A stretch of DNA of 64,000 nucleotides from positions 16,709 through 80,708 of the forward strand of contig CAXBPH010000001.1 of NCBI GenBank assembly GCA_963977445.1, in the 5' to 3' direction. Of this stretch, positions 25,218 to 48,063 are shown one piece after another. The translations under genes and the position numbers were made by a program. The DNA comes from an uncultured bacterium. GTDB taxonomy: Bacteria; Hydrogenedentota; Hydrogenedentia; Hydrogenedentales; JAEUWI01. The stretch's first letter is position 1. Each line of letters begins with the position of its first letter. The notes beneath the pieces were generated by a model that saw nothing but the letters and a program-made list of their open reading frames with translations, searched no databases and was not told the DNA's origin.

Positions 25218-26015
25218 TCAGGCGATAGCTTCCTGGGGAAAAGGCATTTGCCCAGGCGCCTTCGGGCGCATACCGCTCACAATGAGCCCGGGACGGCCAA
25301 CACTCTGGCCGCTCAACTGGACATTCTCGGGGTCGCGAAAACCACAACGTACCAGCCGGCGAACCTTGTCCGTCTGGTTTATGTAGCTGCCGTGGACCGT
25401 GAAGATGTTGAAGATCACAATATCCCCCCGTCGGGCAGGCACCGCCACCGTATCCTCAAGCCGATAGTCATCGGTCGAAAGATGGGGCGTGCAGGGGCCC
25501 TCGGGCGTTTCGGTGATATGGGGCAGGTAACCCGGCTTGTGGCTCCCCGCCAGAAATCGAATTTCGCCATTTTCGTGGCAGGTATCATCCAAATGAACCA
25601 ATACATCGATATAGCGGCCATCAGTATGTTCGTAAAAGGCGTTATCCTGGTGGAGAGGAAAGGGGTGGCCCGTTTCCGGGGGCTTCATGTGTAGTGTCGT
25701 GTGATGGAGCTCCACATTGGGGCCCAGTAAGTCGGACATGGCGCCCGTCAATCGGGGGCTCAACATGGCCCGGCTCCAGGCCTCGGAATAGAAGTGAAGG
25801 TCGTGCAGGTGCGTGAGCTTCGACTTTTCCGACGTAGCTGCGTCCATATAGGCATTCCGCCAGGGCCCCGTCCATCCCATGTCGGTCTGGGCCCAATCCG
25901 TCAACAGGGTTTCAAGCTGCCCGTCCATGGCACCGATCTCCTCGGCGGAGAACACCTGTGGGATATGAAGATACCCTTGTTCCTGGTAAAATTTGCACTG
26001 TGCTTCGGTCAACAT
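25218..26015 (-). CDS. phytanoyl-CoA dioxygenase (PhyH) family Fe(II)/2OG oxygenase
   Basis: MLTEAQCKFYQEQGYLHIPQVFSAEEI N-terminus and H..D...H triad context (HQDNAFYEH...TVHGS). The supplied ORF extends to 26099; an internal ATG at 26015 matches the family N-terminus. Confidence 0.65.
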   Translation of the reverse strand: MLTEAQCKFYQEQGYLHIPQVFSAEEIGAMDGQLETLLTDWAQTDMGWTGPWRNAYMDAATSEKSKLTHLHDLHFYSEAWSRAMLSPRLTGAMSDLLGPNVELHHTTLHMKPPETGHPFPLHQDNAFYEHTDGRYIDVLVHLDDTCHENGEIRFLAGSHKPGYLPHITETPEGPCTPHLSTDDYRLEDTVAVPARRGDIVIFNIFTVHGSYINQTDKVRRLVRCGFRDPENVQLSGQSVGRPGLIVSGMRPKAPGQMPFPQEAIA

Positions 26016-26187
26016 GGGCTCGTGTACTCCTGAATTCTTCCGACGATAGGGACTACAGATGTTTTTCGTTGGCCGGGCGCTACCACGGCAGCGGGGCAAA
26101 TATGCTATAGTATCGTTTCGCTCGTTCCGACTTAAAGAATACTATCACCATCAATCGGCAACTACAACGCCCGAAAAGGAACCTCTC

Positions 26188-26654: not shown

Positions 26655-27674
26655 ATGCCCAATCAACCTGCCCGACGTAAACCAAAGCAATTTACCGGCG
26701 TTCCGGCCCACAAGCGTGATCTCGCGCTGGCAATAAAGTGGCACAACCTCATCGAATTTCAGGATGAGCGCGGCAAGCCCTTTCGACGCTTCTACAAATT
26801 GGAAACCCTGACCAGCGCCATCGAAAAGATGGTCAAGGAACAGGACCGCTTCCTCACGCCTGTACTCCAGCAGACCCTCGGTACCGGTAAACTGACCAGT
26901 ATGAATATCGAACTGGTCGGAGAAGACGCCCTTCGCTTCATCTTCCACGCACGCGCCTCCAACGCGCTGAAGAAGCGCGTAACTTTGCGCCTGGTCGTCG
27001 CCAAGAATGAAGAAGAAGCCACCCGGCGGGTTGCCACCGAGTTTAAACACCTCTCTGCACTGGCCGAGCGAATTCCCGAGCACATGACCGTGCCCTTGCG
27101 TTCGGGAGGGATTTTCATGCCCGACCGCTATCGCCGTAAAGAACACCATCGGGATATCCAGGCGTATATCACCACGGCCCCCAATGGCTATGAGCCCCTG
27201 GGCGTTCATCGCAACGAGCAGTTCATGTCCCTCGGCGCCGCCCCCCACACGTTTACCAAAAAAGAGACCGAAGCCCTTAAACAGGCTATGGTCACCGTCA
27301 TCGCCAGTGCTTTCAACCCCATCACCCGTGATGGATTGGACACGCACCAGATTGATGACACCACCTTTCAGGTATTCCGCCCCAGCCGGGGCCTTCCCAA
27401 GCTGAAGGTATTCAACTGCGTCCATATGCAGCCCCGTCTGACCCCGCCCCGTCTGCTGGGCTTTCTCCTGACCGATTGCTGGGAAAACCGGGGTGTACAG
27501 TGCCCCCTGGCTCCCGAAGATCCCAACGTGTTTTTTAAGGGTCTTGTCGACGCCGTGGGAAAAGATACCGCGAAGCAATGGGTCGCTCAGTTTGCGCCCC
27601 TGGCCGCCGCCGATAAGATTAAGGCACCCAAGGATGGCTACGTCGAGGAACTCGCGGAAGTCGCTGCCGGGTAA
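26655..27674 (+). CDS. hypothetical protein (339 aa, unknown family)
   Basis: Same-strand ORF 14 nt after the previous gene and 42 nt before Wzm. Balanced amino-acid composition, versus the Gly-rich antisense ORF 26637..27713. No recognisable motif. Confidence 0.4.
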   Translation: MPNQPARRKPKQFTGVPAHKRDLALAIKWHNLIEFQDERGKPFRRFYKLETLTSAIEKMVKEQDRFLTPVLQQTLGTGKLTSMNIELVGEDALRFIFHARASNALKKRVTLRLVVAKNEEEATRRVATEFKHLSALAERIPEHMTVPLRSGGIFMPDRYRRKEHHRDIQAYITTAPNGYEPLGVHRNEQFMSLGAAPHTFTKKETEALKQAMVTVIASAFNPITRDGLDTHQIDDTTFQVFRPSRGLPKLKVFNCVHMQPRLTPPRLLGFLLTDCWENRGVQCPLAPEDPNVFFKGLVDAVGKDTAKQWVAQFAPLAAADKIKAPKDGYVEELAEVAAG

Positions 27675-27716: not shown

Positions 27717-28583
27717 ATGGCAACTCTACGACATGCAGGTTGGGCCCACATGCCCCCCCTTCGGCTACTGGGTGATCTCATCGCATCCCGGGAACTGCTT
27801 CTCGATCTGGTGCGGAAAGATCTCCGGGTGCGCTATCGCTATGCCGCCCTCGGATTTCTCTGGGCCGTGCTGGAACCGCTCGCCTATATGGTGGTGCTCA
27901 CCTTCATTTTTGAGCGCATTCTCGCCCCGAAAACCGGGGCGACCATGTTTGGACCCGACATACCCTTTGCGGCGGGTCTTTTGTGCGGCCTGGTCTTCTG
28001 GCAGTTCACGACCCAGGCCATCAGTGCCGCCACGGCGTCCCTGCTGGACAATCAGCACCTCATAAAAAAGGTCGCTTTCACCCGGGAGGTCGTCCCGCTG
28101 GCAGCCATGGGCTATCCGCTCATTTCGCTATTCGTGGGCGTGACCGTGCTCATTCTGGTCCATCTCGTCCTCGGCGGGAGCCTGGGTCTGGCGGTGCTTT
28201 GGATGCTCCCCCTCTTTCTCCTGCAACTCGCCTTCACCGTAGGGGTAGGCCTCTTCACGGCCGCCCTCAATGTCCGCTTTCGCGATATAGGCTATATGGT
28301 CAGTGTGGCCCTCGTCCTCGGATTCTATGGGACCCCCGTATTTTATGATCTCGACTGGGTGCTCTCGGCGGCACAGAATGGCCATGTTCCCCACCTCGTC
28401 GTGCAGGCCTATCTGGCGAACCCCATGGCGGAGCTGTTGGAAGCCTATCGGCAGGCACTCCTCGAAGGTCGCCGTCCCGATGGATGGCTCTTTCTCTGGC
28501 CCATGATCGTGGCCACCATCGCACTACTGGTCGGTGTAATCACCTTCCGGCGCAGCGCCCCCACCCTGTCGGACTACCTCTGA
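27717..28583 (+). CDS. ABC-2 type polysaccharide/O-antigen export permease (Wzm/KpsM/TagG family)
   Basis: LRVRYRYAALGFLWAVLEPLAYMVVL signature of ABC-2 exporters. 6 TM helices. Confidence 0.8.
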   Translation: MATLRHAGWAHMPPLRLLGDLIASRELLLDLVRKDLRVRYRYAALGFLWAVLEPLAYMVVLTFIFERILAPKTGATMFGPDIPFAAGLLCGLVFWQFTTQAISAATASLLDNQHLIKKVAFTREVVPLAAMGYPLISLFVGVTVLILVHLVLGGSLGLAVLWMLPLFLLQLAFTVGVGLFTAALNVRFRDIGYMVSVALVLGFYGTPVFYDLDWVLSAAQNGHVPHLVVQAYLANPMAELLEAYRQALLEGRRPDGWLFLWPMIVATIALLVGVITFRRSAPTLSDYL

Positions 28584-30661
28584 TGGTGGTCATTGAAGCC
28601 AGCGATATCACCAAGACCTATCCCACCCAGGGTGGCAAGCGGGCCTTACTGGGCCGAGGCGGCATTGGAACGTTCTTTGCAACGAAAAAGGCGTCGGACG
28701 CGGCCCTCGCCCCCCTTTCCCTGACCGTCCATGCCGGGGAGGCCCTGGGTATAATCGGGCGCAACGGCTCCGGCAAAAGCACTTTACTCAAAATAATCGC
28801 CGGCGTCACCGCACCCACCAGCGGAACCCTCAACGTCAATGGACGGGTCGCCAGCCTCCTCGAATTGGGCGCGGGCTTCCACCCCATGTTGACGGGTCGG
28901 GAAAATGTCTATCTCAACGCAGGCCTACTCGGGATGCGCCATGCCCAGGTCGACGCCTGCTTTGATGACATCGTTGAATTTGCCGAGCTCGCCGAGGCCA
29001 TCGATCACACCGTGGACACCTACAGCAGCGGCATGTTTGTCCGCCTCGCTTTTTCCGTGGCCATCCATACCAATCCCGACGTCTTCCTCGTCGACGAAGT
29101 ACTGGCCGTGGGCGATGAGTCCTTCCAGCGAAAGTGCCGGGCCCGCATTCTGGCCCTGAAGGCCGCAGGCAAGACCATCCTCTTCGTTTCGCACGATCTG
29201 GGAAGCATTCAGGCCCTGTGTGATCGGGTGTTGCTGCTGGATCGGGGAACGGCCCTCTCCCGGGGCAACGCCCAGGACACCATCGATTTTTATCTCCGCC
29301 AGATTGGTGAAACGAAAGGTATCGGCCATCTGGTCCATAACGATACCGAGGCCATTTTCAATCATGGGCGTATCGCCCTTTTCCACCGTCAGCGAGAACT
29401 AACGGCCCCCCTGGGCATTAAAGTTCAGTTTTACAGCATGGGCACCTATCACGAGTCCACCGATGCCCTGTGGCATGTCTCAGAGACAGCCCCAACGACC
29501 CTCACAGGTTCCGGCACCTTCCCGCGACTCCCCGTTACGCTGCACATGACCTGCACGCTGGACGACACCGGTCTGGTCGTGACGGTTTCGTGGGAAAACA
29601 CCCAGGCCCTCAACCTGAGCTATGTGGCCCTCCAGGTGTTTGCGGTAAGCTCCTATGCGCAGTGGCATGCCGGAAGCCGAAGCGGTGCGTTCCCACCAAT
29701 CGGCCCGGAGAATCACCAATGGAGCACGGTTCTGACCCTTCCACCTTCGGAAGGCACCTGTGAACTGGCGGGAGATGGGGATTCCGACCTCCCCCCACTC
29801 TGTTTCTCCCTGGAGGGGGACACGTCGGGTGCCCGATTCCAACTGGACAACTCGGATTACATGGGGCAGGCCCGCATTATCCACCTGACCGAAGCCATAC
29901 CCACGGGTGCCAACCCCCTGCCACCAGAGAAACGGCACCTCGGGACCCTGACCATGGACCCCACCCAAGACCCCCAGGGACTGGAAAAACTTCGGACCCA
30001 GCGGCGCGACGCGCAACGGCTGGATCTCGCCAGCATCAGCGCAATACTCCATGATGGACAGGTACAGCTCCTTGGCGATGGCATCCCCTTGACCGACGGG
30101 CTCCATTGTCATCTTCAGCTTCGCACAGGCGATCTCTGGGTGCTGGGCCACGACTTCTCCTGGGCAGTGACAGCAAAACAAGACGACACCCTCACGGCCA
30201 CCGGACGGGTCCAGCGTATCCCCTGCGCCATCGCATGGACCGTAAGCGCCATCGCAGCAGACACGCTGGAGTTACAACTCGAATTAACGGCGGACCAGGA
30301 ATTGGAACTGACCGAATACAACCTGTCTCTCTGTCTGGCGACTGCCTATGACGAATGGGCCACCCCATCGGAATCGGGCCACTTCGGAAACGCGACAAAA
30401 ACAGGTCGTGGCTGGACTCATCTCAATAGCGCCTACACCGAGGGCACGTCCATTGTGGCCCAGGGAAAGGACGTACCCACACTAACCCTGACGGCCTCCG
30501 AGCATCTCGGAAACGCCTACCCCACGGCCATACGCACCGACACGGATCAGGATCTACGGGTACTCCAACTCCTGTGCAACCCGGGACAACAGCGGGCCTT
30601 CGCACTTGGGACAGGAGCCCATACGTTATTTCGCGCCACATTGCACGTTGGAAGCCAATAG
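28583..30661 (+). CDS. ABC transporter ATP-binding protein (Wzt/TagH-like) with ~440-aa C-terminal extension
   Basis: ATGA start/stop overlap with Wzm (ATG at 28583). Walker A GRNGSGKST, signature YSSGMFVRLAFS, Walker B VFLVDEVLAVGDE. The long C-terminal domain is unlike the ~150-aa Wzt carbohydrate-binding domain. The supplied ORF starts at 28484. Confidence 0.8.
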   Translation: MVVIEASDITKTYPTQGGKRALLGRGGIGTFFATKKASDAALAPLSLTVHAGEALGIIGRNGSGKSTLLKIIAGVTAPTSGTLNVNGRVASLLELGAGFHPMLTGRENVYLNAGLLGMRHAQVDACFDDIVEFAELAEAIDHTVDTYSSGMFVRLAFSVAIHTNPDVFLVDEVLAVGDESFQRKCRARILALKAAGKTILFVSHDLGSIQALCDRVLLLDRGTALSRGNAQDTIDFYLRQIGETKGIGHLVHNDTEAIFNHGRIALFHRQRELTAPLGIKVQFYSMGTYHESTDALWHVSETAPTTLTGSGTFPRLPVTLHMTCTLDDTGLVVTVSWENTQALNLSYVALQVFAVSSYAQWHAGSRSGAFPPIGPENHQWSTVLTLPPSEGTCELAGDGDSDLPPLCFSLEGDTSGARFQLDNSDYMGQARIIHLTEAIPTGANPLPPEKRHLGTLTMDPTQDPQGLEKLRTQRRDAQRLDLASISAILHDGQVQLLGDGIPLTDGLHCHLQLRTGDLWVLGHDFSWAVTAKQDDTLTATGRVQRIPCAIAWTVSAIAADTLELQLELTADQELELTEYNLSLCLATAYDEWATPSESGHFGNATKTGRGWTHLNSAYTEGTSIVAQGKDVPTLTLTASEHLGNAYPTAIRTDTDQDLRVLQLLCNPGQQRAFALGTGAHTLFRATLHVGSQ

Positions 30662-30666
30662 TTCCT

Positions 30667-31632
30667 ATGCCCCTTTCTCCCGCCACTATCGCCGTATCTA
30701 TTGTGATTCCCGCCTACAATCAGGCGACGCTCCTCGTGCGGCTGCTGGATTCCTTCCTTGCAATGGGCAATCAGCCGCTCTGGGAAGTCATCATCGTAGA
30801 TGATGCTTCAACCGATGATACCCAGTCGCAGGTGGCGGACTGGCTGGAAAATCACGGCGACGTGAATGGCCGCTACCTCCGCCAGGAACACAATCAAGGG
30901 CCCGGTGCCGCACGAAACCGCGGACTGGAGGTCGCCAAAGCCCCACTCGTGGCCTTCACCGACACCGATTGTGTCGTGAAACCCGGTTGGCTGGCCGCAC
31001 TGGTGGCACCCCTCGACGGAAACAATACGATTGTCGGTGTCGGCGGTGCGGTGGTCCCCTGGAATCCGGATAATCGCTTCGCCCGCTACAACACGGTGAA
31101 CAACACCCTCCAGCCAATCCACGCCCCCGACTATCCCATCCCCTACCTGGTCACGTGCAACTGCGTCTACCGTCGCAACGCGTTGCAGGCTGCAGGGGGA
31201 TTCCCCGACGACATCCCCCGACCCGGTGGTGAGGATGTGGCCGCGAGCATCGCCCTCTACAAGCAAGGCTATCGCTTCGCCTTCGCACCCGACGCCGTGG
31301 TCTGTCACGACTACCGCGACACCTGGCGAAGCTTCATGCGGACCTGGACGAACTATGGATTCGGTTGCGGCCTCGTGGCCCAGCGTATGCTCACCCCCGA
31401 GGAGCGCAACCCCGAGCTGGGCAAATGGGACGGTGACAACTACTGGGGCGTCCAGGCTGTCCGCCCGACCGTTACCGGGGTCCGGTCCCTGATAAAAGAC
31501 CTGCGATGGCATTGGGGCCGATGTCTTGGCCTCAAAACGGCCCCGAAGCGTATACCCGCGCTGATGTTGTTGCGCGTAATCGAAAGGCTGTGCTACTTTC
31601 GCGGCTGGAAACTAGCGCAACGGCAGACCTGA
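30667..31632 (+). CDS. glycosyltransferase family 2
   Basis: VSIVIPAYNQATLL...VIIVDDASTDDT...FTDTDCV (DXD) ... GGEDVA. Internal ATG at 30667 chosen; the ORF extends to 30574. Confidence 0.75.
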   Translation: MPLSPATIAVSIVIPAYNQATLLVRLLDSFLAMGNQPLWEVIIVDDASTDDTQSQVADWLENHGDVNGRYLRQEHNQGPGAARNRGLEVAKAPLVAFTDTDCVVKPGWLAALVAPLDGNNTIVGVGGAVVPWNPDNRFARYNTVNNTLQPIHAPDYPIPYLVTCNCVYRRNALQAAGGFPDDIPRPGGEDVAASIALYKQGYRFAFAPDAVVCHDYRDTWRSFMRTWTNYGFGCGLVAQRMLTPEERNPELGKWDGDNYWGVQAVRPTVTGVRSLIKDLRWHWGRCLGLKTAPKRIPALMLLRVIERLCYFRGWKLAQRQT

Positions 31633-31785
31633 GACGATAGGCGAAATAGTCCTGACCAAGGTCACGCAATTTTCGAACTTCCTACGTAACGCCTCCTGAA
31701 TAACCCAACCCTTTTCCCTTCCAAGCACGGACTGGGGTAGAATCATGCCCGATGTGCACCACAACCTAGCTTCAGGCCTGATCCT

Positions 31786-34134
31786 ATGACGAACACCCCA
31801 CCCATCAAAGCGCCCGCCCTCCGATCCGTTCGTGGATTGGTGCTGGCAGTCAATGAACATGGGGAGCGGACCGACCCGACCACAATCCGCCAGTGGCTCC
31901 GTCTTTCGACCGAAAAGTTCAAGGCCCGGAAGGTGGACCTCTATCTGCCCGAGGCGGATGAGCGCGCCCTGCTACCCTTGTTGGAAGAGGCCGCCCATCT
32001 GGGTCTCCGCCTTTCCTTGCGGTGCACCCCGGTCACCCCCCCGGCAATACTACCCACCCTCGCCGAAGCGGGGCTGTTGGACCTGGCACTCGACGTGAGT
32101 GAGTTGGACGCCCATGTGCTACGGGGCTGGATGGACCAGGCAACATTCGTCGGGCTACCCCTACGGCTCTTCATCACGGCAGAGGCCATCTCGGCGTCGC
32201 CAGACGATTCTTTGATGGACCTGCTTTCCGAAGCCGCGTCCGTACAGGTCTCCTTGGTGGATTCACTCACTGATGTCAGCACCACCGCCGCCCTGCCACC
32301 GGACACGATCGAACACATTATCTCCCTGATTCGGGGACTGAGAGACCGGGGTACCGAAATCCACTGCCTACAGATTCCCTATTGCCAGCTTCCCGAAGAC
32401 CTGTGGCCCACAGTCACCCAACATGCCCAGTGGCTAACCCACCACCAGTACTATCGGCCCGCCGCCCTGGAATTCGTACGAAAACTCAAGAGACTCACGC
32501 CCGCGCGCATGCGCCAGGCCGTAGAAATCGCTCTGGGCGAAGGGGCTTCCTTCCACAACCGTATCGACGATGCCGTGCTGCCCTGGGTGCTGGAGCATCC
32601 GTGGTATTTCTACTGGATTTGGTTCCTGCACAAGCTGACGCGCCGCCTGCCCCTGCGCCGCAAACAGCCCAGCCCTTTCCCAGAGGACCTCACCGAGTTA
32701 GAGGCCCTGGTAGAAGCACACCGCACCGAACAGCGAAAGAACTTGGGCCCGATTTGCGCCCAATGTCGATTTCATCCCATCTGCGACCACCACACGGAGC
32801 TCCTCAAGCAGCGCCTGCCGGGTCGAGCCATCGTAGCCCACCCGGGGGAGCCCCTGTATGACCCCCACGCCTTTCTGGACCCTGCCGTCACCTGGTATGA
32901 CCCTATAGACACCCAGCGGGTCCAGCAGTGGTCTCAGAGGGCCCATCGGGTCGAAGAAGCCCAACAACGTATCCAACGGGAACGACCTACCCGGGAAATT
33001 CCCGCAGAGAGCTATGAGATTCAGGATCACAAGACCCATCGTATGCCCGCCTCGGTACGCTGGTTCTCCTTTTCCACCGCCGAACTGCAGAGCACCGTAC
33101 TCGCCCGCCTGTCACCGCCATTCACAATAAGTGTCACCGTTGGGGGCGGAATGGCGGCGCTCATGGGCTTTGCCTTTGGTCGGCACGCCCGCCTCATGTG
33201 CCCCATGACCGCCTTCAGCCACAAACTGACCCTCCATGTCGACCGTGATGGTTACTACGTCCTCCTGCGGGACGGTGAGCCCGTGATGCCCACGGCATTT
33301 GAAGACGCCGATCTGGTTCCCGAGTATCTGGGCACCGTCGTGGAGCCCCGTATCGCCCTGACCAACATCGACGGGCAAATCGTCACCCAGACGGTGCTCC
33401 TTTGGGAGGAAAAACCCGCGACCACGCCCCCGCCGCCATGCAGGCACAGCGTGGTCATCGTTTGCACGAAGTATGCCCGTCGACTCCAGGCGGCCTTGCT
33501 GGCGCTGGCCCATCAAGAGGGACTGGAGGGCAAGGGACTCGAAGTCCTTGTCGGCTATGTACCCGGCATCGATGCGACCGACGACGTCTTGGACAGTCTG
33601 GCCGCCCAATGCCCCGAATTGACGATAATCCGCATGCCTTTTACCCCGCAGCACGACCGCGCAAAGGGCTTTATCATCAACGAATGTATCGATTTGGCCC
33701 GGGGAGCTTGGATTACCCTCCTGGATGCGGATATCATGCTGCCGCCCGATTATTTTGCACGACTGGATCGTGAACCCGAGGACACCCGATTTGTGGTACC
33801 GGATGGGCGTCATATGTTGTCCCCCGAAACGACCGCACGTGTGCTCCTGGGACTTTCCCATCCCTGGGCGGACTATGACGCCTTGCTCGAAAGTGACGGC
33901 GAATACCGTCACCACGAGTCGGAAGGAGTTCCCCCCGGCTTTTGCCAGAGTGTGCGACGCGCCGTGCTTGAAAAGATTCGATACCAGGAATTGGACCATT
34001 TTGAAGGGTCCGACTGGTGGTTCAGCGCCCAAGTCATAGAATGCTTCGGGAAAGAAACCCGACTGGAGGGCCTCCGCGTGCTCCATCTGGACCATGGTGG
34101 CAGCCAGTGGTATGGTACGGACAGGCACTATTAG
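31786..34134 (+). CDS. large hypothetical protein with C-terminal GT2-like (DxD) glycosyltransferase domain and N-terminal unknown domain
   Basis: C-terminal ~230 aa: SVVIVCTKYARRLQAALLAL...ITLLDADIMLPPDYF (GT-A fold-like). N-terminal ~500 aa without known motifs, except a CAQCRFHPICDHH cysteine cluster. Confidence 0.5.
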   Translation: MTNTPPIKAPALRSVRGLVLAVNEHGERTDPTTIRQWLRLSTEKFKARKVDLYLPEADERALLPLLEEAAHLGLRLSLRCTPVTPPAILPTLAEAGLLDLALDVSELDAHVLRGWMDQATFVGLPLRLFITAEAISASPDDSLMDLLSEAASVQVSLVDSLTDVSTTAALPPDTIEHIISLIRGLRDRGTEIHCLQIPYCQLPEDLWPTVTQHAQWLTHHQYYRPAALEFVRKLKRLTPARMRQAVEIALGEGASFHNRIDDAVLPWVLEHPWYFYWIWFLHKLTRRLPLRRKQPSPFPEDLTELEALVEAHRTEQRKNLGPICAQCRFHPICDHHTELLKQRLPGRAIVAHPGEPLYDPHAFLDPAVTWYDPIDTQRVQQWSQRAHRVEEAQQRIQRERPTREIPAESYEIQDHKTHRMPASVRWFSFSTAELQSTVLARLSPPFTISVTVGGGMAALMGFAFGRHARLMCPMTAFSHKLTLHVDRDGYYVLLRDGEPVMPTAFEDADLVPEYLGTVVEPRIALTNIDGQIVTQTVLLWEEKPATTPPPPCRHSVVIVCTKYARRLQAALLALAHQEGLEGKGLEVLVGYVPGIDATDDVLDSLAAQCPELTIIRMPFTPQHDRAKGFIINECIDLARGAWITLLDADIMLPPDYFARLDREPEDTRFVVPDGRHMLSPETTARVLLGLSHPWADYDALLESDGEYRHHESEGVPPGFCQSVRRAVLEKIRYQELDHFEGSDWWFSAQVIECFGKETRLEGLRVLHLDHGGSQWYGTDRHY

Positions 34135-34190: not shown

Positions 34191-35447
34191 TTGCGTATCA
34201 GTCTGGTCGATTTACTCTTCTCCTGGCCCCCCAATGGCGGGGCCGATGTCGATCTGTATAATCTCGCAACGGGCCTGACCCGCGCCGGTCACGATGTACA
34301 GGTGGTCGTCGTAAACGACGCCAACTCCTGGGAGCGGGGCGCCATCCACAGCGGACATTTCTCCTTTTCTCTCCTGGGCGTGTCGGGTACGGGGCGCAAC
34401 TTCCATCGGAAGCGGCTGCCTGCCCGTATTCGCGAAGCAGTGGACATGTGGAACCCCGACGTGGTCTTTCTGGGCGATGGCTTCCTCATGAAACCCTACG
34501 TAGGGCTCGCCCTCGCAGACTATCCACTCGTCGTCCGTTACTATGCCTACGAAATGGCCTGTCTCCGCGATATACTCCAATTTAAGGACGGCGCGCCCTG
34601 TCCCAACCACTATCTAAAGACGCCTGGCGTCTGCCGCGCCTGTGCCTTTGAGCATCTCGGCCCGGAGATTAAGTCGGGGCGGCACCACGCGTGGACCCAG
34701 GAATACCTCGCCGCACAGGCCTATGACCCGGGCTATCGAAACGTCGCAGAGGAATTTCTCGGGCGCATTCACAGTGCCATCGTTTACAACGCGCGGATGG
34801 AGGAAAACCTGAAGCACCACTGCGCCGATGTGTATGTGGTGCCCGGCGGTGTGGACAGCCAACGATTCACCTTTGAACCACAGGCCCCAAAATCGCCCAA
34901 AGAATCCAAGCGCATCTTAATGGCGGGCCGGGCAGAAGATCCCATGAAGGGGCTTGATGTCCTCCTGGAAGCGGGCGAGCGCCTCTATCAACAGCGGCGG
35001 GACTTTATGATTCACGCCACCGTGCCCGAAGAAACGCCCATGCCCTCTTTCGCCCTGGCCATTGGATGGCAATCCCACACCTCCCTGGTTGAATACTACC
35101 GGCAGGCCGATATCTGCGTGGTGCCCAGCCGCTGGGAAGAACCCTTTGGCCTCGTCGCCCTGGAGGCCATGGCGACCGGACGTCCCGTATGTGCCAGTCG
35201 TGTAGGTGGCCTGCAGGACATCGTGGTTCACAAAGAAACGGGTTTTCTCTTCGATTCCGGTGATGCCGCCGAACTGGCCAAACAGCTGGACGTCCTGCTG
35301 GACAACCCCAATTTGCGTCAACGCATGGGCATCGCAGCCCACCGACGGGTCTATGCGGAATACCGTTGGCCCCACATCGTGGAAGAGTACTACATCCCCA
35401 TTCTGGAAGCGGCCTGCGAAAGCGGTACGCGGATGGTGGCTCCATGA
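34191..35447 (+). CDS. glycosyltransferase family 4 (GT-B, retaining)
   Basis: EPFGLVALEAMATGRPVCASRVGGLQDIV motif. TTG start with aagga RBS. Confidence 0.8.
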   Translation: MRISLVDLLFSWPPNGGADVDLYNLATGLTRAGHDVQVVVVNDANSWERGAIHSGHFSFSLLGVSGTGRNFHRKRLPARIREAVDMWNPDVVFLGDGFLMKPYVGLALADYPLVVRYYAYEMACLRDILQFKDGAPCPNHYLKTPGVCRACAFEHLGPEIKSGRHHAWTQEYLAAQAYDPGYRNVAEEFLGRIHSAIVYNARMEENLKHHCADVYVVPGGVDSQRFTFEPQAPKSPKESKRILMAGRAEDPMKGLDVLLEAGERLYQQRRDFMIHATVPEETPMPSFALAIGWQSHTSLVEYYRQADICVVPSRWEEPFGLVALEAMATGRPVCASRVGGLQDIVVHKETGFLFDSGDAAELAKQLDVLLDNPNLRQRMGIAAHRRVYAEYRWPHIVEEYYIPILEAACESGTRMVAP

Positions 35448-35890
35448 GCGCTCCCCGCATCTGTGCCTTCTACAGCCGAGGCCCCCACTACGTCCGCCTG
35501 CTTCGGTGCCTCCGGGAAAACTACCCCGATGCCACCCTGGTCGCGGCCATCCCCACCAGTTTTCCCTACCATGCCATTGAAGGGCTGGTGGACGAGACAC
35601 TGCGGCTGGACGACGGAACGAAACCCAAGCGTCTGGCGCAAAATTGGACTACCCTGGGTCAGATTCGTCGCGCGAAGTGCTCTCATCTGGTCATCATGTT
35701 CGACAGCCCCCGGCTCAACCTGCTCAGCGCACTCTCGGGCGCAAGCGTCCGGCGGTGTTTCACCGTCGATGGACGCTTCTACAAACTCAAGCAACCGTTG
35801 ATAACCGTATTCCTGAACTATTTGCGACAGCGGATGACGGGAATGTGGTATTACGCCCGGGCCGGGTGGGGCACCCGCAAATCGCAATAG
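35444..35890 (+). CDS. hypothetical protein (148 aa), translationally coupled to upstream GT4
   Basis: ATGA overlap at 35444-35447 (MSAPRICAFYS...). No family recognised. Confidence 0.35.
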   Translation: MSAPRICAFYSRGPHYVRLLRCLRENYPDATLVAAIPTSFPYHAIEGLVDETLRLDDGTKPKRLAQNWTTLGQIRRAKCSHLVIMFDSPRLNLLSALSGASVRRCFTVDGRFYKLKQPLITVFLNYLRQRMTGMWYYARAGWGTRKSQ

Positions 35891-39498: not shown

Positions 39499-42400
39499 GT
39501 GGCCAGAGAAACAAGGCAGGGAATTATCACAATGAAAAATCACCGCAATCGATTTGTGTTGGGCATGACGGTCAGTACGCTGCTTTGCGGACTCTGGCAA
39601 CCGCAACTTGACGCCCAGCAAGAAAGCGCCGAGACCCTGGCGGGCATGGAAACCGCTCCCGGACTCGAAGTGACGCTCTTCGCATCTGAGGACCAACTGG
39701 TCAATCCAACGGCCATAGACATCGGTCCAGACGGACGGGTCTGGGTGACGGAGGCAGCCAACTACCGCCTCTTCAAACATCCCGTTGTCCAGGAAGGTGG
39801 TGATCGTGTCCGCGTCCTTGAAGATACGGATGGAGACGGCCGTTGCGATAAAGCGACCACGTTCTACCAGGATCCTTCGCTCCAGGCACCGCTGGGCATC
39901 GCTATCCTCGGCGACCGGGTCTATGTGTGCCAAAGCCCCGACCTCTTCTATCTCGAAGACCTCGACAAAGACGGTAAGGCCGACAAGAAAACCATCATCC
40001 TCACCGGCTTCGGGGGCGTTGATCATGACCACGCCATACATGGCATCATGGCGGGCCCCGATGGTCTTATTTACATGACCGTAGGCGATGGCGGCCTTGA
40101 CGTGACCGATAAATCGGGCCACCGCATCACGGCTGGCAAGGGCGCTGAGAATCCCGAGTTTGATGCGGCCACCGTGTTACGCACCGATCCTGAGGGCAAT
40201 CATCTGGAGATCCTGGCCGAGGGCATGCGCAACCCCTATGAGCCCACCATAAACTCCTTTGGCACCATATTTGGTTCGGACAATGACGACGATGGCAACG
40301 AACAGGTCCAGATTAATGACGTCATGGAAGGCGGACATTATGGGTACTGGCCCCGGCGCCAGGGCGACCGTCGCCTTGATGCGATCCATTGGAACAAAGA
40401 CCGCGCCGGCGTAATGCCCAATATGATTCGCACGGGATTTGGCTCGCCCACCGGCATCCTGTTTTACGAAGGCTCCCTCCTTCCGACGCGCCTGCAGAAC
40501 ACCTTGATTCATGCAGACGCGGGTCCGGGCGTCATTCGCTCCTACCGCGCCGTGGCCAATGGCGCAGGCTACAGTGGCGAAACAGAAATTATCCTCTCCG
40601 CGCCAAAAGACAAATGGTTTCGTCCCAGCGACGTCTGCGTAGCGCCTGATGGTTCCGTGCTTGTCGCAGACTGGTACGACCCGGGCGTCGGCGGTCACAA
40701 CATGGGTGACACAACCCGTGGCCGAATCTACCGCCTGGCACCGCCTGCAACGCCCTATACGATTCCCCCGCTGGAGTTAACGACAGACGAAGGCATTACC
40801 AACGCCCTGGCCTCCCCCAACCTGGCCCGCCGCTACCTGGCCTATACCGTCCTCACCGGAGACCTTAAGGGTGCCGAAGTGCCCCTGCTCCATAAGATTT
40901 ATCAAAGCAATGATCCGGTCCTCCGCGCACGGGCCCTCTGGCTCCTCGGACAGGAAAAAAACCACGGCTTGGAAACCCTCCTGGAAGCGGCCAAAGATGA
41001 TGCCCCGGCCTTCCGCGTTGAAGCCGTTCGCCTGTTGGCCGCCCGGGGTTCGGATGCGCTCTTCATGGCCGCTGGGTTGGTCGACGACCCCAACCCCATG
41101 GTCCGCCGCCAGGTGCTGGTAGAACTGCGCAACCTGCCGGATTCCTCCAAGCGAGACGCATGGCTTATCGCCCTGGCCCTGCAATATGACGGCCAGGATC
41201 GATTCTATCGGGAGGCAGTGGGTATCGCCTTCACCGGCCGGGAATCCTGGGGCTTTGAACAACTTCATGAGAAATTGGGTGGCCGCTGGGATGAACGCCT
41301 CTCCGGCCTGGCCCTCCAACTTCATCCCCCAGAGGCTATGGTGATCGCCGAGACCGCACTCAGCAACGCCAACCTTGGTGATACCCCCCGAAAATTGGCC
41401 ATGGACGTGCTCGACGCCATCGGCACCGAGGAAAGCGGCAAGCTTCTCGTCCAACTCATCGAAGCACCCGGCACCGAAGCCACCCTTTTCGAGCACGCCC
41501 TGCACCACCTTTCCCGGAATGGCGGCCAGGACTGGAGCAGCGTTACCGGCGGCGACGTCCTGGACGACGCCCTCGCGACCGCCTTGGATGACCCGGGACG
41601 CAGCAAGGCGGTGTGGTCCTTCCTTGCCGACACCCAACGACAGAGCTTCGTACCGGTATTGATTGCCCGTGCAAACCAGGAAACACTCACACTGGACAGT
41701 CGATTGGCCTCCCTGAGCGGCATCCGAGCGATTGCGCCCAAAGTAGGCCCCAAGGATGCCGACGGCATGGTAAAGGAGCTCGCACCCCTGCTGCAGGATA
41801 AAAATGAATTGTTGCGGAACGCGGTTCTCCAGACGATCCAGGATTTCCGTGGCAGCGCCAGCCGTTCCCTTCTACTGGACCTCGTTTTGGACATAGAACA
41901 GGATCTGACCCTGCGCGCGGACCTCGCCAAACACCTGGCGGGCACCCAGTCTGGCGCCATTGCGCTGCTGGATGCGGTGGAACAGGAAACATTGCCGGCT
42001 GACCTGCTGCCCGTGGTTTCGGAACAGATTCACAACAGCCCCTTCGAAGATGCCCGCATGATGGCGGAACAACTGCTTCCCCGAGACACCACCGCCGATG
42101 GTGCGGCCCTGCCCCCCATGGAGGAACTGATAACCATGGCGGGCGACGCGGAACGGGGCAAGATGGTCTTCTTCAGCGAAGATTTTGCCCAATGCTTCCG
42201 CTGCCACAGAATCGGAGAGGAAGGCAAAGAAGTGGGTCCCAATCTCACGGTGATTGGCCAGAAATTCGGCCGGGAAGGCATTCTGGAATCCATCCTCTTT
42301 CCGAGTGCAGCCATTTCCCACGAATATGAGGTTTGGATAGTGGAAACCGAGTGGGACGGCTTCCTCAGCGGCTTCATTGTGAGTGAGAACGACAAAGAAG

Positions 42401-42561
42401 TGAGACTGATGGATGCTACCGGCACCGTAAAAGATTTGAAGCGGTCTGATATCCTCGACACCCGGAAAAGTGCGACTTCACTCATGCCGACGGGACTGGC
42501 AGCGGCCATGTCGGCCCAGGATTTGAGCGATCTGGTAGCCTATCTGGCAACACTCAAATAG
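39499..42561 (+). CDS. PVC-type large secreted protein: membrane-bound-dehydrogenase-like beta-propeller + HEAT repeats + C-terminal CxxCH heme-binding domain
   Basis: Signal peptide. DIGPDGRVWVTE / VAPDGSVLVADWYDPGVGGH propeller blades. HEAT/PBS-lyase-like repeats. C-terminal CFRCHRIGEEGKEVGPNLT cytochrome-c motif (Pirellula/Verrucomicrobium-type heme-binding domain). Confidence 0.7.
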   Translation: MARETRQGIITMKNHRNRFVLGMTVSTLLCGLWQPQLDAQQESAETLAGMETAPGLEVTLFASEDQLVNPTAIDIGPDGRVWVTEAANYRLFKHPVVQEGGDRVRVLEDTDGDGRCDKATTFYQDPSLQAPLGIAILGDRVYVCQSPDLFYLEDLDKDGKADKKTIILTGFGGVDHDHAIHGIMAGPDGLIYMTVGDGGLDVTDKSGHRITAGKGAENPEFDAATVLRTDPEGNHLEILAEGMRNPYEPTINSFGTIFGSDNDDDGNEQVQINDVMEGGHYGYWPRRQGDRRLDAIHWNKDRAGVMPNMIRTGFGSPTGILFYEGSLLPTRLQNTLIHADAGPGVIRSYRAVANGAGYSGETEIILSAPKDKWFRPSDVCVAPDGSVLVADWYDPGVGGHNMGDTTRGRIYRLAPPATPYTIPPLELTTDEGITNALASPNLARRYLAYTVLTGDLKGAEVPLLHKIYQSNDPVLRARALWLLGQEKNHGLETLLEAAKDDAPAFRVEAVRLLAARGSDALFMAAGLVDDPNPMVRRQVLVELRNLPDSSKRDAWLIALALQYDGQDRFYREAVGIAFTGRESWGFEQLHEKLGGRWDERLSGLALQLHPPEAMVIAETALSNANLGDTPRKLAMDVLDAIGTEESGKLLVQLIEAPGTEATLFEHALHHLSRNGGQDWSSVTGGDVLDDALATALDDPGRSKAVWSFLADTQRQSFVPVLIARANQETLTLDSRLASLSGIRAIAPKVGPKDADGMVKELAPLLQDKNELLRNAVLQTIQDFRGSASRSLLLDLVLDIEQDLTLRADLAKHLAGTQSGAIALLDAVEQETLPADLLPVVSEQIHNSPFEDARMMAEQLLPRDTTADGAALPPMEELITMAGDAERGKMVFFSEDFAQCFRCHRIGEEGKEVGPNLTVIGQKFGREGILESILFPSAAISHEYEVWIVETEWDGFLSGFIVSENDKEVRLMDATGTVKDLKRSDILDTRKSATSLMPTGLAAAMSAQDLSDLVAYLATLK

Positions 42562-46340: not shown

Positions 46341-48032
46341 TTGAATATTCTGGGCATTGGTGGCTATTCGCACGATTCCGCAGCGGCACTGGTATGTGAC
46401 GGAAGAGTCGTTGCCGCCGTAGCCGAAGAACGTCTCTCCCGGGTGAAACATCAGGGCGGCATCCCCCACCGCGCCATCGCCTGGTGCCTGGAAGCGGGTG
46501 GAATAACGGCGGAAGAGGTGGACCATGTGGGCTGCTACATGCGCCCGGGCCTTCGCCTCGGAAAGCGCCTTCCCTACCGTGCATCGACCTTCTTCAAGCA
46601 TCCATTTTACGCTACAGCCTTTGCCGGGTATGAAATAATTCACAACGCCCAATACATCCAAGGTATGCGGAAGCTGACACCGCCCCATGGGAAGCTCCAC
46701 TATATGGAACACCATCCGGCCCACGCAGCCAGCGCTTTCTTATGCAGCCCCTTTGAGGAAGCCGCCCTCCTCTCCATCGATTATGTGGGCGAATGGGCCG
46801 TAACCTGGACCGGAGTGGGCCGTGGCGGCGCCATCACCCGCCTTCGCCAGACCAACTACCCCAACTCCCTCGGCGTCTTTTATTCCGCCCTCACCGACTA
46901 CCTCGGCTTTCTCCGTGCGTCGGATGAATACAAGGTGATGGGCCTGGCGTCCTACGGGGAACCGACCTACTATGACGATCTGAAAGAGGTCATTCGTCCC
47001 CAGGAGGACGGCTGGTATGCCATCGATCACCGATACACGGCGTGGCACTATCTTCCCGGTTCCCGTTGTGGTTATTTCAGCCAACGGTTTATTGACCGCT
47101 TCGGGCCGCCCCGAAAAAAAGACGAGCCCATCACCGAGCATCACCGCAATCTGGCGGCCTCGGCCCAGCGCCTTCTCGAAGACATCGTATTGAATCTGTG
47201 CCGCAGCCTTCACAAGGAAACCGGCCTGAAAAAGCTCTGTCTTGCTGGAGGCGTTGCCTTGAATTGCTCCATGAATGGGCGACTCAAACGGGAAGGCCCC
47301 TTTGAAGACATCTGGGTGCAACCCGCTTCGGGCGATGATGGCATCGCTATTGGAGCGGCACTCCAGCTCCACCACCAGTTCGGTGGTTCCCCCCGGAACT
47401 TTGTGATGGATCACGCTTTTCTGGGCCCCGAAGTTTCCAATGAAGAAATCGGCGATTTTCTGGACCTGACCAAGACCCCCTATCACCGCTCAGAAAACAT
47501 CGCCGAAGATACGGCGAAGTTACTGGCTGAGGGGAAAATTGTGGGTTGGTTTCAGGGCCCGATGGAGTTTGGCCCCCGTGCCTTGGGAAGTCGCAGTATT
47601 CTGGCCGACCCGACCCGACCCGACATGAAAGACCTCCTGAACAAACACGTCAAATTTCGGGAAGAATTTCGACCCTTTGCCCCGAGCGTCCTGGCGGAAC
47701 ACGCGAGCACCTATTTTGAAGGCTGTACCGATTCGCCCTTCATGCTCTTTGTCTATCCCGTGCGCGCCGAGAAACAGGCGGAAGTCCCGGCGGTCACCCA
47801 TATCGACGGCACCGCCCGGGTGCAGACGGTCACGGAAGCGGCCAATCCCCGTTACTATCAACTTATCAAGGCCTTTGCCGACCTCCGCGGAACGCCCATG
47901 CTGCTCAACACCAGTTTTAACGTGATGGGTGAGCCTATCGTGCACAGCCCGTCTGACGCGATCCGATGTTTTTATAGCACGGGCATGGATGCCCTGGCTA
48001 TTGGCGACTATCTCATTGTAAAGAATCCCTGA
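46341..48032 (+). CDS. carbamoyltransferase, NodU/CmcH/TobZ family
   Basis: N-terminal MNILGIGGYSHDSAAALVCDGRVVAAVAEERLSRVKH (ASKHA-like domain) and C-terminal YrdC-like domain. 563 aa, matching O-carbamoyltransferases. TTG start preceded by gggagag. Confidence 0.85.
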   Translation: MNILGIGGYSHDSAAALVCDGRVVAAVAEERLSRVKHQGGIPHRAIAWCLEAGGITAEEVDHVGCYMRPGLRLGKRLPYRASTFFKHPFYATAFAGYEIIHNAQYIQGMRKLTPPHGKLHYMEHHPAHAASAFLCSPFEEAALLSIDYVGEWAVTWTGVGRGGAITRLRQTNYPNSLGVFYSALTDYLGFLRASDEYKVMGLASYGEPTYYDDLKEVIRPQEDGWYAIDHRYTAWHYLPGSRCGYFSQRFIDRFGPPRKKDEPITEHHRNLAASAQRLLEDIVLNLCRSLHKETGLKKLCLAGGVALNCSMNGRLKREGPFEDIWVQPASGDDGIAIGAALQLHHQFGGSPRNFVMDHAFLGPEVSNEEIGDFLDLTKTPYHRSENIAEDTAKLLAEGKIVGWFQGPMEFGPRALGSRSILADPTRPDMKDLLNKHVKFREEFRPFAPSVLAEHASTYFEGCTDSPFMLFVYPVRAEKQAEVPAVTHIDGTARVQTVTEAANPRYYQLIKAFADLRGTPMLLNTSFNVMGEPIVHSPSDAIRCFYSTGMDALAIGDYLIVKNP

Positions 48033-48063
48033 ATCCAACCCAGGTATCGGACAGGCCAGTTAC

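What the first reader, a model, noticed from the sequence alone, without database searches (positions are those of the whole stretch)
31786..34134. 782-aa protein fusing an unknown ~500-aa N-terminal domain to a GT-A (DxD) glycosyltransferase-like C-terminus
The C-terminal ~230 aa have GT2-like features (VVIVCTKYARR..., LLDADIMLPPDYF). The N-terminal two thirds match nothing I recognise, but contain a CAQCRFHPICDHH cysteine/histidine cluster and alpha/beta-barrel-like periodicity reminiscent of degenerate radical-SAM/SPASM or TIM-barrel modifying enzymes. A fused sugar-modifying plus glycosyl-transfer enzyme inside an export operon could be a bifunctional tailoring enzyme.
Basis: inference. 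Interest (0 to 1): 0.5.

Follow-up and report, generated by a model that had tools for sequence, protein, structure and literature searches.

The report
Glycosyltransferase fused to dead radical-SAM domain
This gene encodes a sugar-transferring enzyme of a glycan-export operon whose unknown front two-thirds is an inactivated copy of a neighbouring radical-SAM enzyme plus a lectin-like sugar-binding fold, an undescribed architecture found almost only in the uncultured phylum Hydrogenedentota.

Summary
The 782-aa ORF (31786-34134, +) is real and conserved at full length in about 100 protein clusters and 139 genomic stretches, nearly all Hydrogenedentota MAGs. It has three modules, not two.

1. 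Residues 1-400 are a radical-SAM-fold beta/alpha barrel, paralogous to a genuine radical-SAM enzyme encoded directly upstream in the sister clade (hhalign 98.4%, E 6e-15). A 19-aa deletion has removed the CxxxCxxC loop and the GGE SAM motif is lost. Four auxiliary cysteines (C200, C324, C327, C333) remain and are kept or lost together.
3. Residues ~550-782 are a GT2 domain, with DxD invariant in 90/90 copies.

The gene sits in a Wzm/Wzt ABC-exporter operon with GT2 and GT4 genes.

A second radical activity does not, because the cluster ligands are absent.

Most likely this is a single-activity glycosyltransferase whose pseudoenzyme and lectin-like modules bind the acceptor glycan. That mechanism is inferred, not shown. 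It is a new variant of a known kind, of moderate interest.

The parts
31786..32985 (+). Module 1 (aa 1-400): pseudo-radical-SAM domain. It is a beta/alpha barrel (strands at aa 16-20, 49-53, 75-80, 100-104, 126-131, 152-156, 191-195) followed by a helical region. It carries four Cys (C200, C324, C327, C333). It has no CxxxCxxC and no GGE motif.
32992..33420 (+). Module 2 (aa ~403-545): concanavalin/CBM-type beta-sandwich. It is the most conserved non-GT part, with invariant W426, GGG453-455, H479 and VLLRD492-496.
33436..34134 (+). Module 3 (aa ~551-782): GT2-family (GT-A type) glycosyltransferase domain. It has D596/T598/D600, DxD at D647-D649, candidate catalytic base E740/D743, and H767/H770.
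   Evidence: Pfam PF00535 at 32-35 bits against a cutoff of 23.3, full model length. The best PDB profile hit is the GT2 6yv7 at E 6e-5. DxD is present in 90/90 copies and the HxxH pair in 89/90.
27717..28583 (+). Wzm-type ABC-2 permease of the same operon.
   Evidence: Pfam ABC2_membrane and NCBIfam galactan Wzm/RfbD at 2.4e-19. It recurs next to homologues.
28583..30661 (+). Wzt-type ABC ATPase with an uncharacterised C-terminal extension of about 450 aa. The likely start is ATG 28583, overlapping the Wzm stop.
   Evidence: NCBIfam TagH/Wzt matches at 1e-45 to 1e-52. The extension has no Pfam, NCBIfam or PDB hit. It is conserved in 26 loci.
30667..31632 (+). Upstream GT2 glycosyltransferase (MftF-like). 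It occupies the slot that a genuine radical-SAM gene holds in the sister clade.
   Evidence: Pfam PF00535 at 3e-35 and NCBIfam MftF at 2.8e-50, below that model's cutoff.
34191..35447 (+). Downstream GT4 glycosyltransferase.
   Evidence: Pfam Glycos_transf_1 at 6e-31. A GT4 lies directly downstream in 22 of 81 copies that have enough flank to judge.
35444..35890 (+). Conserved 148-aa ORF of unknown function, translationally coupled (ATGA) to the GT4 stop.
   Evidence: It is conserved in 20 loci. It has no family hit.
26655..27674 (+). Conserved 339-aa protein of unknown function at the head of the operon.
   Evidence: No Pfam, NCBIfam or PDB hit. It lies upstream of Wzm in 14 loci.

Best explanation
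The gene encodes a soluble or peripheral cytoplasmic glycosyltransferase with one catalytic activity. It belongs to a Hydrogenedentota-specific glycan pathway that depends on a Wzm/Wzt ABC exporter. The C-terminal GT2 domain transfers a sugar from a nucleotide-sugar donor using the invariant DxD (metal and diphosphate binding) and probably E740 or D743 as the base. The N-terminal 400 residues are a pseudoenzyme. They arose by duplication of the radical-SAM gene that still lies directly upstream in the sister clade. They then lost the CxxxCxxC loop through a 19-aa deletion and lost the GGE SAM motif, and became fused to a beta-sandwich plus GT. The module kept the barrel and a four-Cys, twitch-like auxiliary metal site (Fe-S or Zn) that is probably structural. 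Together with the lectin/CBM-like beta-sandwich, it most likely serves as an acceptor-recognition module that holds the lipid-linked glycan for the GT domain. Shown here: the ORF, the family, the three folds, the homology to genuine radical-SAM enzymes, the loss of the cluster motif, the intact GT motifs and the operon context. Inferred: the acceptor-binding role, the nature of the metal, and the identity of the glycan and donor.
Against: No experiment exists and no ligand has been identified. Foldseek against the PDB returns only generic TIM barrels at TM about 0.3, with no radical-SAM enzyme in the 50 hits listed, so fold evidence alone does not single out radical SAM. About half of the copies have neighbours my query set did not recognise, and only 11 of 31 copies with 7 kb on both sides show Wzm/Wzt nearby at the threshold used, so the export link is recurrent rather than universal. 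Invariant charged residues in the barrel (K49, D51, R79, D99, R127) and the unusually high conservation of the beta-sandwich (62%) could point to more than passive binding. No initiating phosphoglycosyltransferase was found among the window ORFs I scanned.
Confidence: 0.55

Rival explanations
1. It is a true bifunctional enzyme. After losing radical chemistry, the barrel acquired or kept a non-radical catalytic or cofactor-binding activity on the sugar or glycan (for example epimerase, dehydratase, phosphotransfer or hydrolase-type chemistry), and the GT domain then uses or extends the product. This is essentially the first reader's idea without the radical step.
Against: It matches no catalytic family in Pfam or NCBIfam even at E <= 10. 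Mean conservation of the module is only 40%, well below the beta-sandwich. Several invariant charges lie mid-strand or at the N-terminal ends of strands in the model, which fits structural salt bridges as well as an active site.
Confidence: 0.15
2. The pseudo-radical-SAM module is a docking or regulatory partner for its catalytically active paralogue. It forms an enzyme-pseudoenzyme pair that couples radical modification of a sugar or glycan to the next glycosyl transfer.
For: The genuine radical-SAM gene lies directly upstream in 18 of 85 copies and in the window's sister clade. The two are specific paralogues, since the control radical-SAM type gives only 10% probability. The active family is large and very conserved.
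Against: The window and its clade have no such radical-SAM gene next to the target, and none within the 64-kb window by tblastn, yet the module is fully conserved there. Tandem-paralogue loci also lack it.
Confidence: 0.12
3. It is a peptide or protein glycosyltransferase (glycocin/RiPP-like). The former radical-SAM domain retains peptide-substrate binding, and the ABC-2 transporter exports the modified peptide.
For: Some homologous loci carry several SPASM/twitch radical-SAM maturase-like genes and small ORFs next to the gene (L002). There is a very weak PDB profile hit to the S-glycosyltransferase SunS at E 0.48.
Against: The transporter is of the Wzt/TagH/RfbE polysaccharide type (1e-45 to 1e-52). 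Extra GT2 and GT4 genes flank the target. No precursor-like ORF is conserved, and the 14-codon uORF upstream is not conserved. The middle domain is lectin/CBM-like rather than a peptide-recognition element. SPASM-type neighbours lie directly upstream in only 2 of 85 copies.
Confidence: 0.06

Closest known systems
GT2-family inverting glycosyltransferases of ABC-transporter-dependent glycan pathways (Pfam PF00535; structural examples in the PDB hits include 6yv7 PcManGT, PglI 9jma and 5tze)
   Same: The Pfam GT2 match is above the gathering score. The DxD motif is invariant. The gene lies in an operon with Wzm/Wzt and other GTs. There is no membrane span, which fits a peripheral cytoplasmic enzyme.
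   Different: It is very divergent: the best PDB profile hit is E 6e-5 over about 80 residues, and no non-family protein reached E <= 1e-3 in the word-indexed search. It also carries about 550 N-terminal residues covered by no described domain family.
Radical-SAM enzymes with SPASM/twitch auxiliary-cluster domains (PF04055 with PF13186; for example PqqE, anSME, SuiB, BlsE), and specifically the uncharacterised ~420-aa Hydrogenedentota radical-SAM family encoded directly upstream of many homologues
   Different: It has no CxxxCxxC (removed by deletion), no GGE motif, and no Pfam Radical_SAM or SPASM score. It has four Cys rather than the seven of SPASM. It is fused to a beta-sandwich and a GT. 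About 5 of the ~90 genomic copies (6 of the 34 aligned representatives) have lost the Cys quartet altogether.
NCBIfam TIGR04347 'pseudo-SAM/SPASM protein' (Halobacteria), the curated precedent for a radical-SAM relative described as 'pseudo'
   Same: The concept is the same: a radical-SAM/SPASM-related protein regarded as non-canonical.
   Different: The target does not match TIGR04347 in the NCBIfam scan. It comes from a different phylum, has a different architecture (a GT fusion), and derives from a different parent radical-SAM family. What TIGR04347 proteins lack is recalled only from the model's name and was not tested here.
Cytoplasmic carbohydrate-binding beta-sandwich of O-antigen Wzt ATPases (E. 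coli O9a type), recalled from established knowledge rather than retrieved here
   Same: It is a jelly-roll beta-sandwich acting on the cytoplasmic side of an ABC-dependent glycan pathway, and presumably reads the glycan.
   Different: Here the sandwich sits in the glycosyltransferase, not in Wzt. The window's own Wzt extension is unrelated to it (hhalign 0.5%). Sugar binding has not been demonstrated.
P0196 / P0230: GT4-like domain fused to a radical-SAM-like module without the cluster motif
   Same: It is a second case of a glycosyltransferase fused to a module related to the same radical-SAM lineage. It lacks CxxxCxxC while keeping GLPFC and Cx2Cx5CD.
   Different: The GT class differs (GT-B GT4 rather than GT-A GT2), the domain order is reversed (GT first), the cluster loop is substituted rather than deleted, and there is no beta-sandwich. 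It therefore looks like an independent event.

Membership tests
GT2 glycosyltransferases (Pfam PF00535, GT-A type) | Score at or above the Pfam gathering threshold over the domain | tested here: met
   32.0 bits for the whole protein and 34.9 bits for the isolated C-terminus, against a cutoff of 23.3, covering model positions 1-167 of 168.
GT2 glycosyltransferases (Pfam PF00535, GT-A type) | DxD metal/nucleotide-sugar binding motif | tested here: met
   D647-A-D649 in the window protein, and D-[A/S/G]-D in 90 of 90 full-length copies.
GT2 glycosyltransferases (Pfam PF00535, GT-A type) | GT-A Rossmann-like fold in a structural model | not tested
The only indirect support is sequence-profile hits to solved GT2 structures (6yv7 at E 6e-5).
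GT2 glycosyltransferases (Pfam PF00535, GT-A type) | Glycosyl-transfer activity with inversion of configuration | not testable with these tools
   This needs biochemistry.
Radical SAM superfamily (PF04055) | CxxxCxxC motif binding the SAM-cleaving [4Fe-4S] cluster | tested here: not met
   All three Cys columns are gaps in 26 of 26 family sequences, within a 19-aa deletion relative to 20 genuine radical-SAM neighbours.
Radical SAM superfamily (PF04055) | GGE-type SAM-binding motif after beta-2 | tested here: not met
   DIQGGEP in the paralogue aligns to KVDLYLPE in the target, and that stretch is not conserved in the family.
Radical SAM superfamily (PF04055) | Partial or full (beta/alpha) barrel fold | tested here: met
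Radical SAM superfamily (PF04055) | Sequence homology to bona fide members, or a Pfam score | tested here: inconclusive
   Homology holds by profile-profile comparison (98.4%, E 6.4e-15), and the weak tail of the exhaustive search is made of Radical_SAM proteins. However, PF04055 gives no hit even at E <= 10. It is therefore a homologue but not a functional member.
SPASM / twitch auxiliary-cluster domain (PF13186) | Seven-Cys CX9-15GX4C...CX2CX5CX3C...C pattern (SPASM), or a single auxiliary cluster with a full Cys set (twitch) | tested here: inconclusive
   Only C200 plus C324-x2-C327-x5-C333 are present, which amounts to one four-Cys site. PF13186 gives no hit. The pattern is twitch-like, but the metal is unknown and six of 34 members lack all four Cys.
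Carbohydrate-binding module / concanavalin-like lectin | Beta-sandwich jelly-roll fold | tested here: met
Carbohydrate-binding module / concanavalin-like lectin | Sequence membership in a described CBM or lectin family, and demonstrated sugar binding | tested here: not met
   There is no Pfam or NCBIfam hit at E <= 10, and identity to structural neighbours is 5-13%. Sugar binding cannot be tested with these tools.
ABC-transporter-dependent (Wzm/Wzt) glycan assembly locus | Wzm permease and Wzt ATPase encoded together with glycosyltransferases | tested here: met
   Window genes 27717-28583, 28583-30661, 30667-31632, the target and 34191-35447. The arrangement recurs in related loci.
ABC-transporter-dependent (Wzm/Wzt) glycan assembly locus | Polyprenyl-phosphate-linked acceptor and an initiating phosphoglycosyltransferase | tested here: inconclusive
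   None of the window ORFs I scanned is a PGT. Initiating enzymes are often encoded elsewhere, and not every ORF was scanned.

The most novel reading that the evidence does not exclude
The cluster-less radical-SAM module still holds an auxiliary [4Fe-4S] cluster on its four cysteines and acts as a redox or oxygen sensor, or as the obligate partner of its active radical-SAM paralogue. In that case the synthesis of a phylum-specific surface glycan would be gated by, or mechanically coupled to, radical chemistry. That would make it an enzyme-pseudoenzyme system within the radical-SAM superfamily, built into a glycosyltransferase.
Probability: 0.12. Interest if true: 0.7.

Novelty: new variant of a known kind. 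Interest (0 to 1): 0.45.

Why it matters
Radical-SAM enzymes are among the largest enzyme superfamilies, but well-documented dead members that evolution has reused as non-catalytic modules are rare. This case is unusually clear. The active parent gene still sits next door in a sister clade. The lesion is a clean deletion of the cluster loop. The auxiliary cysteines are kept or lost as a set. The dead copy is welded to a lectin-like fold and a glycosyltransferase, and the arrangement is conserved across a whole uncultured phylum. It gives about 550 residues of previously uncovered sequence a domain assignment, in at least 100 protein clusters that sources label only 'GT2' or 'hypothetical'. It defines a recurring Hydrogenedentota envelope-glycan locus with three further unknown conserved proteins. 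An independent GT4 fusion suggests that glycosyltransferases repeatedly recruit this barrel. Practical impact is modest until the glycan and the module's ligand are identified.

Tried and rejected
- **Family and PDB sequence searches on the N-terminus:** Pfam and NCBIfam on residues 1-550 and on sub-pieces, at E <= 10, gave nothing. A PDB sequence search with the single protein gave nothing. With the family profile, only weak GT2 hits appeared.
- **Foldseek against the PDB for the N-domain:** it returned only generic TIM barrels with low TM-scores, so it does not corroborate the specific radical-SAM assignment.
- **AFDB50 fold search:** the library was unavailable.
- **Beta-sandwich versus the Wzt extension:** I tested whether the Wzt C-terminal extension is related to the target's beta-sandwich. 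It is not (probability 0.5%).
- **SPASM/twitch neighbours as parents:** I tested whether the SPASM/twitch radical-SAM genes of L002 are the parents of the N-domain. They are not (probability 10%).
- **Leader peptide or regulatory uORF:** a 14-codon uORF ends in an ATGA overlap with the start codon, but it is not conserved in close relatives.
- **RNA and promoter elements:** Rfam found no RNA family across the operon. The sigma-70 scan found no consensus promoter in the upstream gap.
- **Anti-phage defence:** the PADLOC scan gave no hit for the target.
- **Literature:** three full-text searches found no description of this architecture or of radical-SAM enzymes in Wzm/Wzt pathways.
- **Public names:** the exact protein and its closest relative carry no name in public sources.
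- **Model coordinates:** they are not exposed, so Cys-Cys distances and pocket geometry could not be measured.
- **A miscount, corrected:** my first synteny count used ORF-open coordinates and undercounted adjacent genes. It was redone.
Full report
**Observation.** The ORF at 31786-34134 (+) exists and encodes 782 aa. Pfam Glycos_transf_2 matches residues 555-731 over the full length of the model, at 32-35 bits against a gathering score of 23.3. Residues 1-550 match nothing in Pfam or NCBIfam even at E <= 10, and nothing in the PDB by sequence. The protein is a real, conserved gene. There are 103 clusters at 90% identity, almost all 770-820 aa, covering 98-100% of the query down to 30% identity. 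Every name given by a source is Candidatus Hydrogenedentes or Hydrogenedentota. In one genome per species (185,579 species), 139 stretches encode a relative. The best 80 are overwhelmingly Hydrogenedentota MAGs, although a number are labelled 'uncultured Nitrospirales/Nitrospiraceae' and single ones Omnitrophota, FCB group or Rhodothermaeota. I did not verify those labels.

**Anatomy.** An alignment of 34 diverse members splits the protein into four stretches:
- a region with periodically spaced invariant charged residues (R16, K49, D51, R79, D99, R127, D159);
- a helical region with the Cys cluster;
- an exceptionally conserved beta-rich block (GGG453-455, H479, VLLRD492-496);
- the GT domain (D596/T598/D600, D647/D649, E735, D743, H767, H770).

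Domain-sliced alignments gave confident AlphaFold2 models.

- BioB, TigE, anSME, SuiB and BlsE.

**The decisive evidence is sequence homology found through gene context.**
- In a homologous locus (L001), a 415-aa Pfam Radical_SAM protein with a canonical CxxxCxxC is encoded 38 nt upstream.
- The N-domain profile aligns to it with 96.9% probability and E 2e-10 over 322 columns.
- Against an alignment of 20 such neighbours, the result is 98.4% probability and E 6.4e-15 over 330 columns.
- As a control, a SPASM/twitch-type radical-SAM protein from another locus gives only 10%.

The joint alignment shows what changed and what was kept:
- RGV-LWLGQTCNQRCYFCYFINR- in the enzyme corresponds to RGL-(19-residue gap)-V in the target.
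- DIQGGEP corresponds to KVDLYLPE.
- A 12-residue segment after LVSLHG is missing.
- AGLRDFLV, FPFRIN, VNFIAFNPF, GIETNVRYLPLCMAEE, YNFQQLTYDTHEW and C-x2-C-x5-C-D-G all have clear counterparts.

Column statistics show that the three cluster cysteines are gaps in 26 of 26 family sequences. The four auxiliary cysteines (L001 positions 238, 358, 361 and 367) align with C200, C324, C327 and C333. R16, G17, D51, D99, R127, P198 and D375 are conserved in both families. W37, K49 and R79 are invariant only in the target family. The four Cys are all-or-none: 28 of 34 representatives have all four and six have none. That is the signature of one metal site which is dispensable in some lineages.

An exhaustive HMMER search of 1.84 billion representatives with the N-domain profile finds just 152 proteins. 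The 75 at E <= 1e-30 are this architecture or fragments of it. The sampled weak tail consists of Pfam Radical_SAM proteins. Two outliers, P0196 and P0230, fuse a GT4 domain to a related module that also lacks CxxxCxxC, there by substitution (RGVLWLGDQADARW), while keeping GLPFC and Cx2Cx5CD. This looks like an independent second fusion of the same kind.

**Context.** In the window the gene is part of a co-directional set:
- an unknown 339-aa protein (26655-27674);
- Wzm (27717-28583);
- Wzt, whose ATG at 28583 overlaps the Wzm stop, and which has a 450-aa C-terminal extension with no known domain;
- a GT2 (30667-31632), followed by a 153-nt gap;
- the target;
- a GT4 (34191-35447);
- an ATGA-coupled 148-aa ORF (35444-35890).

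I ran tblastn with these proteins over 84 fetched loci. This gave recurring configurations:
- the window type (six loci, all in the window's clade or its nearest neighbour);
- a type in which a genuine radical-SAM gene of the L001 family lies directly upstream of the target, seen in 18 of 85 copies with enough flank and often preceded by Wzm-Wzt;
- tandem pairs of the 780-aa protein (14 loci).

A GT4 lies directly downstream in 22 of 81 copies. Pfam-annotated contexts confirm the arrangements unknown-ABC2-ABC(691 aa)-target and unknown-ABC2-ABC(691 aa)-radical SAM-target, and also a paralogue pair. About half of the copies have neighbours that my queries did not recognise, so the associations are recurrent, not universal. 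Clustering of 90 full-length copies puts the window's clade next to the clade with the radical-SAM gene upstream. In the same set, DxD is present in 90 of 90 copies, H767/H770 in 89 of 90, and the Cys quartet is lost in about five. The active radical-SAM family is large (1153 hits at E <= 1e-10), highly conserved and carries only generic names. The target has no transmembrane segment (maximum 19-residue hydropathy 1.6, inside the beta-sandwich).

**Interpretation.** The only module with intact, universally conserved catalytic motifs of a known enzyme class is the GT2 domain, so glycosyl transfer is the enzyme's activity. The N-terminal module is a homologue of radical-SAM enzymes that cannot be one, because it lacks the three cluster cysteines and the SAM-amino-binding motif. 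It therefore fails the defining tests for functional membership while passing those for common ancestry.

The most economical history is a duplication of the adjacent radical-SAM gene, loss of the cluster loop, and fusion to a beta-sandwich plus GT. Pseudoenzymes often keep their parent's ligand-binding scaffold, the middle module has a sugar-binding fold, and the operon builds and exports a glycan. From these three points I infer that the two non-catalytic modules recognise and position the acceptor glycan, possibly the species that the radical-SAM enzyme or the neighbouring GTs produce, for the GT domain.

This step is inference. The invariant W37, K49 and R79 and the very high conservation of the beta-sandwich leave room for a second, non-radical activity or for a partner or regulatory role with the active paralogue. 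The window's clade lacks an adjacent radical-SAM gene, and there is none within the 64-kb window. That argues against an obligate adjacent partnership but cannot exclude a distant gene. A peptide-glycosylation role is unlikely. The transporter is of the Wzt/TagH type, other GTs flank the gene, and no conserved precursor ORF was found.

**Comparison with known systems and novelty.** It works like a peripheral GT2 of an ABC-transporter-dependent glycan pathway and is a member of Pfam GT2. It is not a functional radical-SAM or SPASM member, and it does not match the curated 'pseudo-SAM/SPASM' model TIGR04347. Three literature searches found no description of this architecture. Public sources label family members 'glycosyltransferase family 2 protein' or 'hypothetical protein', and the exact protein carries no name. 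I rate it a new variant of a known kind: a known enzyme class with an undescribed pseudoenzyme plus lectin-like accessory architecture, restricted to one candidate phylum. Interest is moderate at 0.45. It is a clean, testable example of a radical-SAM pseudoenzyme and it annotates about 550 residues of dark sequence, but it overturns no current understanding, and the function of the accessory modules remains inferred.

Noticed in passing
window 28583-30661 (aa ~245-692 of Wzt): The Wzt ATPase carries a C-terminal extension of about 450 aa with no Pfam, NCBIfam or PDB sequence hit. It is conserved next to the target in at least 26 related loci. It is unrelated to the target's beta-sandwich (hhalign 0.5%). 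By analogy it could be a novel glycan-recognition domain.
   Followed up: partly
window 26655-27674: A 339-aa protein at the head of the operon has no hit in any library or in the PDB. It is conserved upstream of Wzm in 14 loci. Unknown proteins of similar size occupy the same slot in L085 and L087.
   Followed up: partly
window 35444-35890: A 148-aa ORF has its ATG overlapping the GT4 stop (ATGA). It is conserved downstream of or beside the GT4 in 20 loci and matches no family.
   Followed up: partly
proteins P0196 (1174 aa) and P0230 (899 aa), from the representative search: These show a second, apparently independent fusion of a glycosyltransferase (GT4-like) with a radical-SAM-like module. 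It lacks CxxxCxxC by substitution (RGVLWLGDQADARW) but keeps GLPFC and Cx2Cx5CD. P0196 has a further C-terminal region that I did not identify.
   Followed up: partly
L004 7644-12343; L086 5286-10355; also L029, L032, L033, L035, L038, L040, L044, L046, L053, L054, L061, L062, L066: Fourteen loci carry tandem paralogue pairs of the 780-aa protein. The upstream and downstream copies fall in different sequence clusters, which suggests an old duplication, perhaps two sequential transferases.
   Followed up: partly
window 25218-26099 (-): A PhyH-family Fe(II)/2-oxoglutarate oxygenase is encoded divergently from the operon. It appears only in window-type loci and in L004. Those loci lack the adjacent radical-SAM gene, so an oxygen-dependent enzyme may replace an oxygen-sensitive one. 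This is pure speculation.
   Followed up: no
window ~31735-31745; L008 and L005 upstream of the homologous start: A conserved GGTAGAATCA element lies about 40-55 nt upstream of the start codon in the window and its two closest relatives. It could be a -10 box for an internal promoter. The simple sigma-70 scan reported no full consensus there, and there is no Rfam hit.
   Followed up: partly
window 31743-31787: A 14-codon uORF (MPDVHHNLASGLIL) has its stop overlapping the target's ATG. It is not conserved in relatives and is probably chance.
   Followed up: yes
window 46341-51071: A second glycan-related cluster contains a NodU/CmcH-type carbamoyltransferase, two GT4 glycosyltransferases and a PIG-L family deacetylase.
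   Followed up: no
window 39499-42561, 58821-61949, 62218-63666, 15677-16642: Genes typical of the PVC group and related phyla are present: a PVC-type heme-binding CxxCH protein, PSCyt1/DUF1549/DUF1553, DUF1501, and a DUF1559 protein with an N-terminal methylation motif. They fit the environmental-MAG origin of the window.
   Followed up: no
L002 5916-9913: Three adjacent SPASM/twitch radical-SAM genes lie upstream of a member that lacks the Cys quartet (P0101). A GT4 and three small ORFs follow it. This context differs from the window's.
   Followed up: partly
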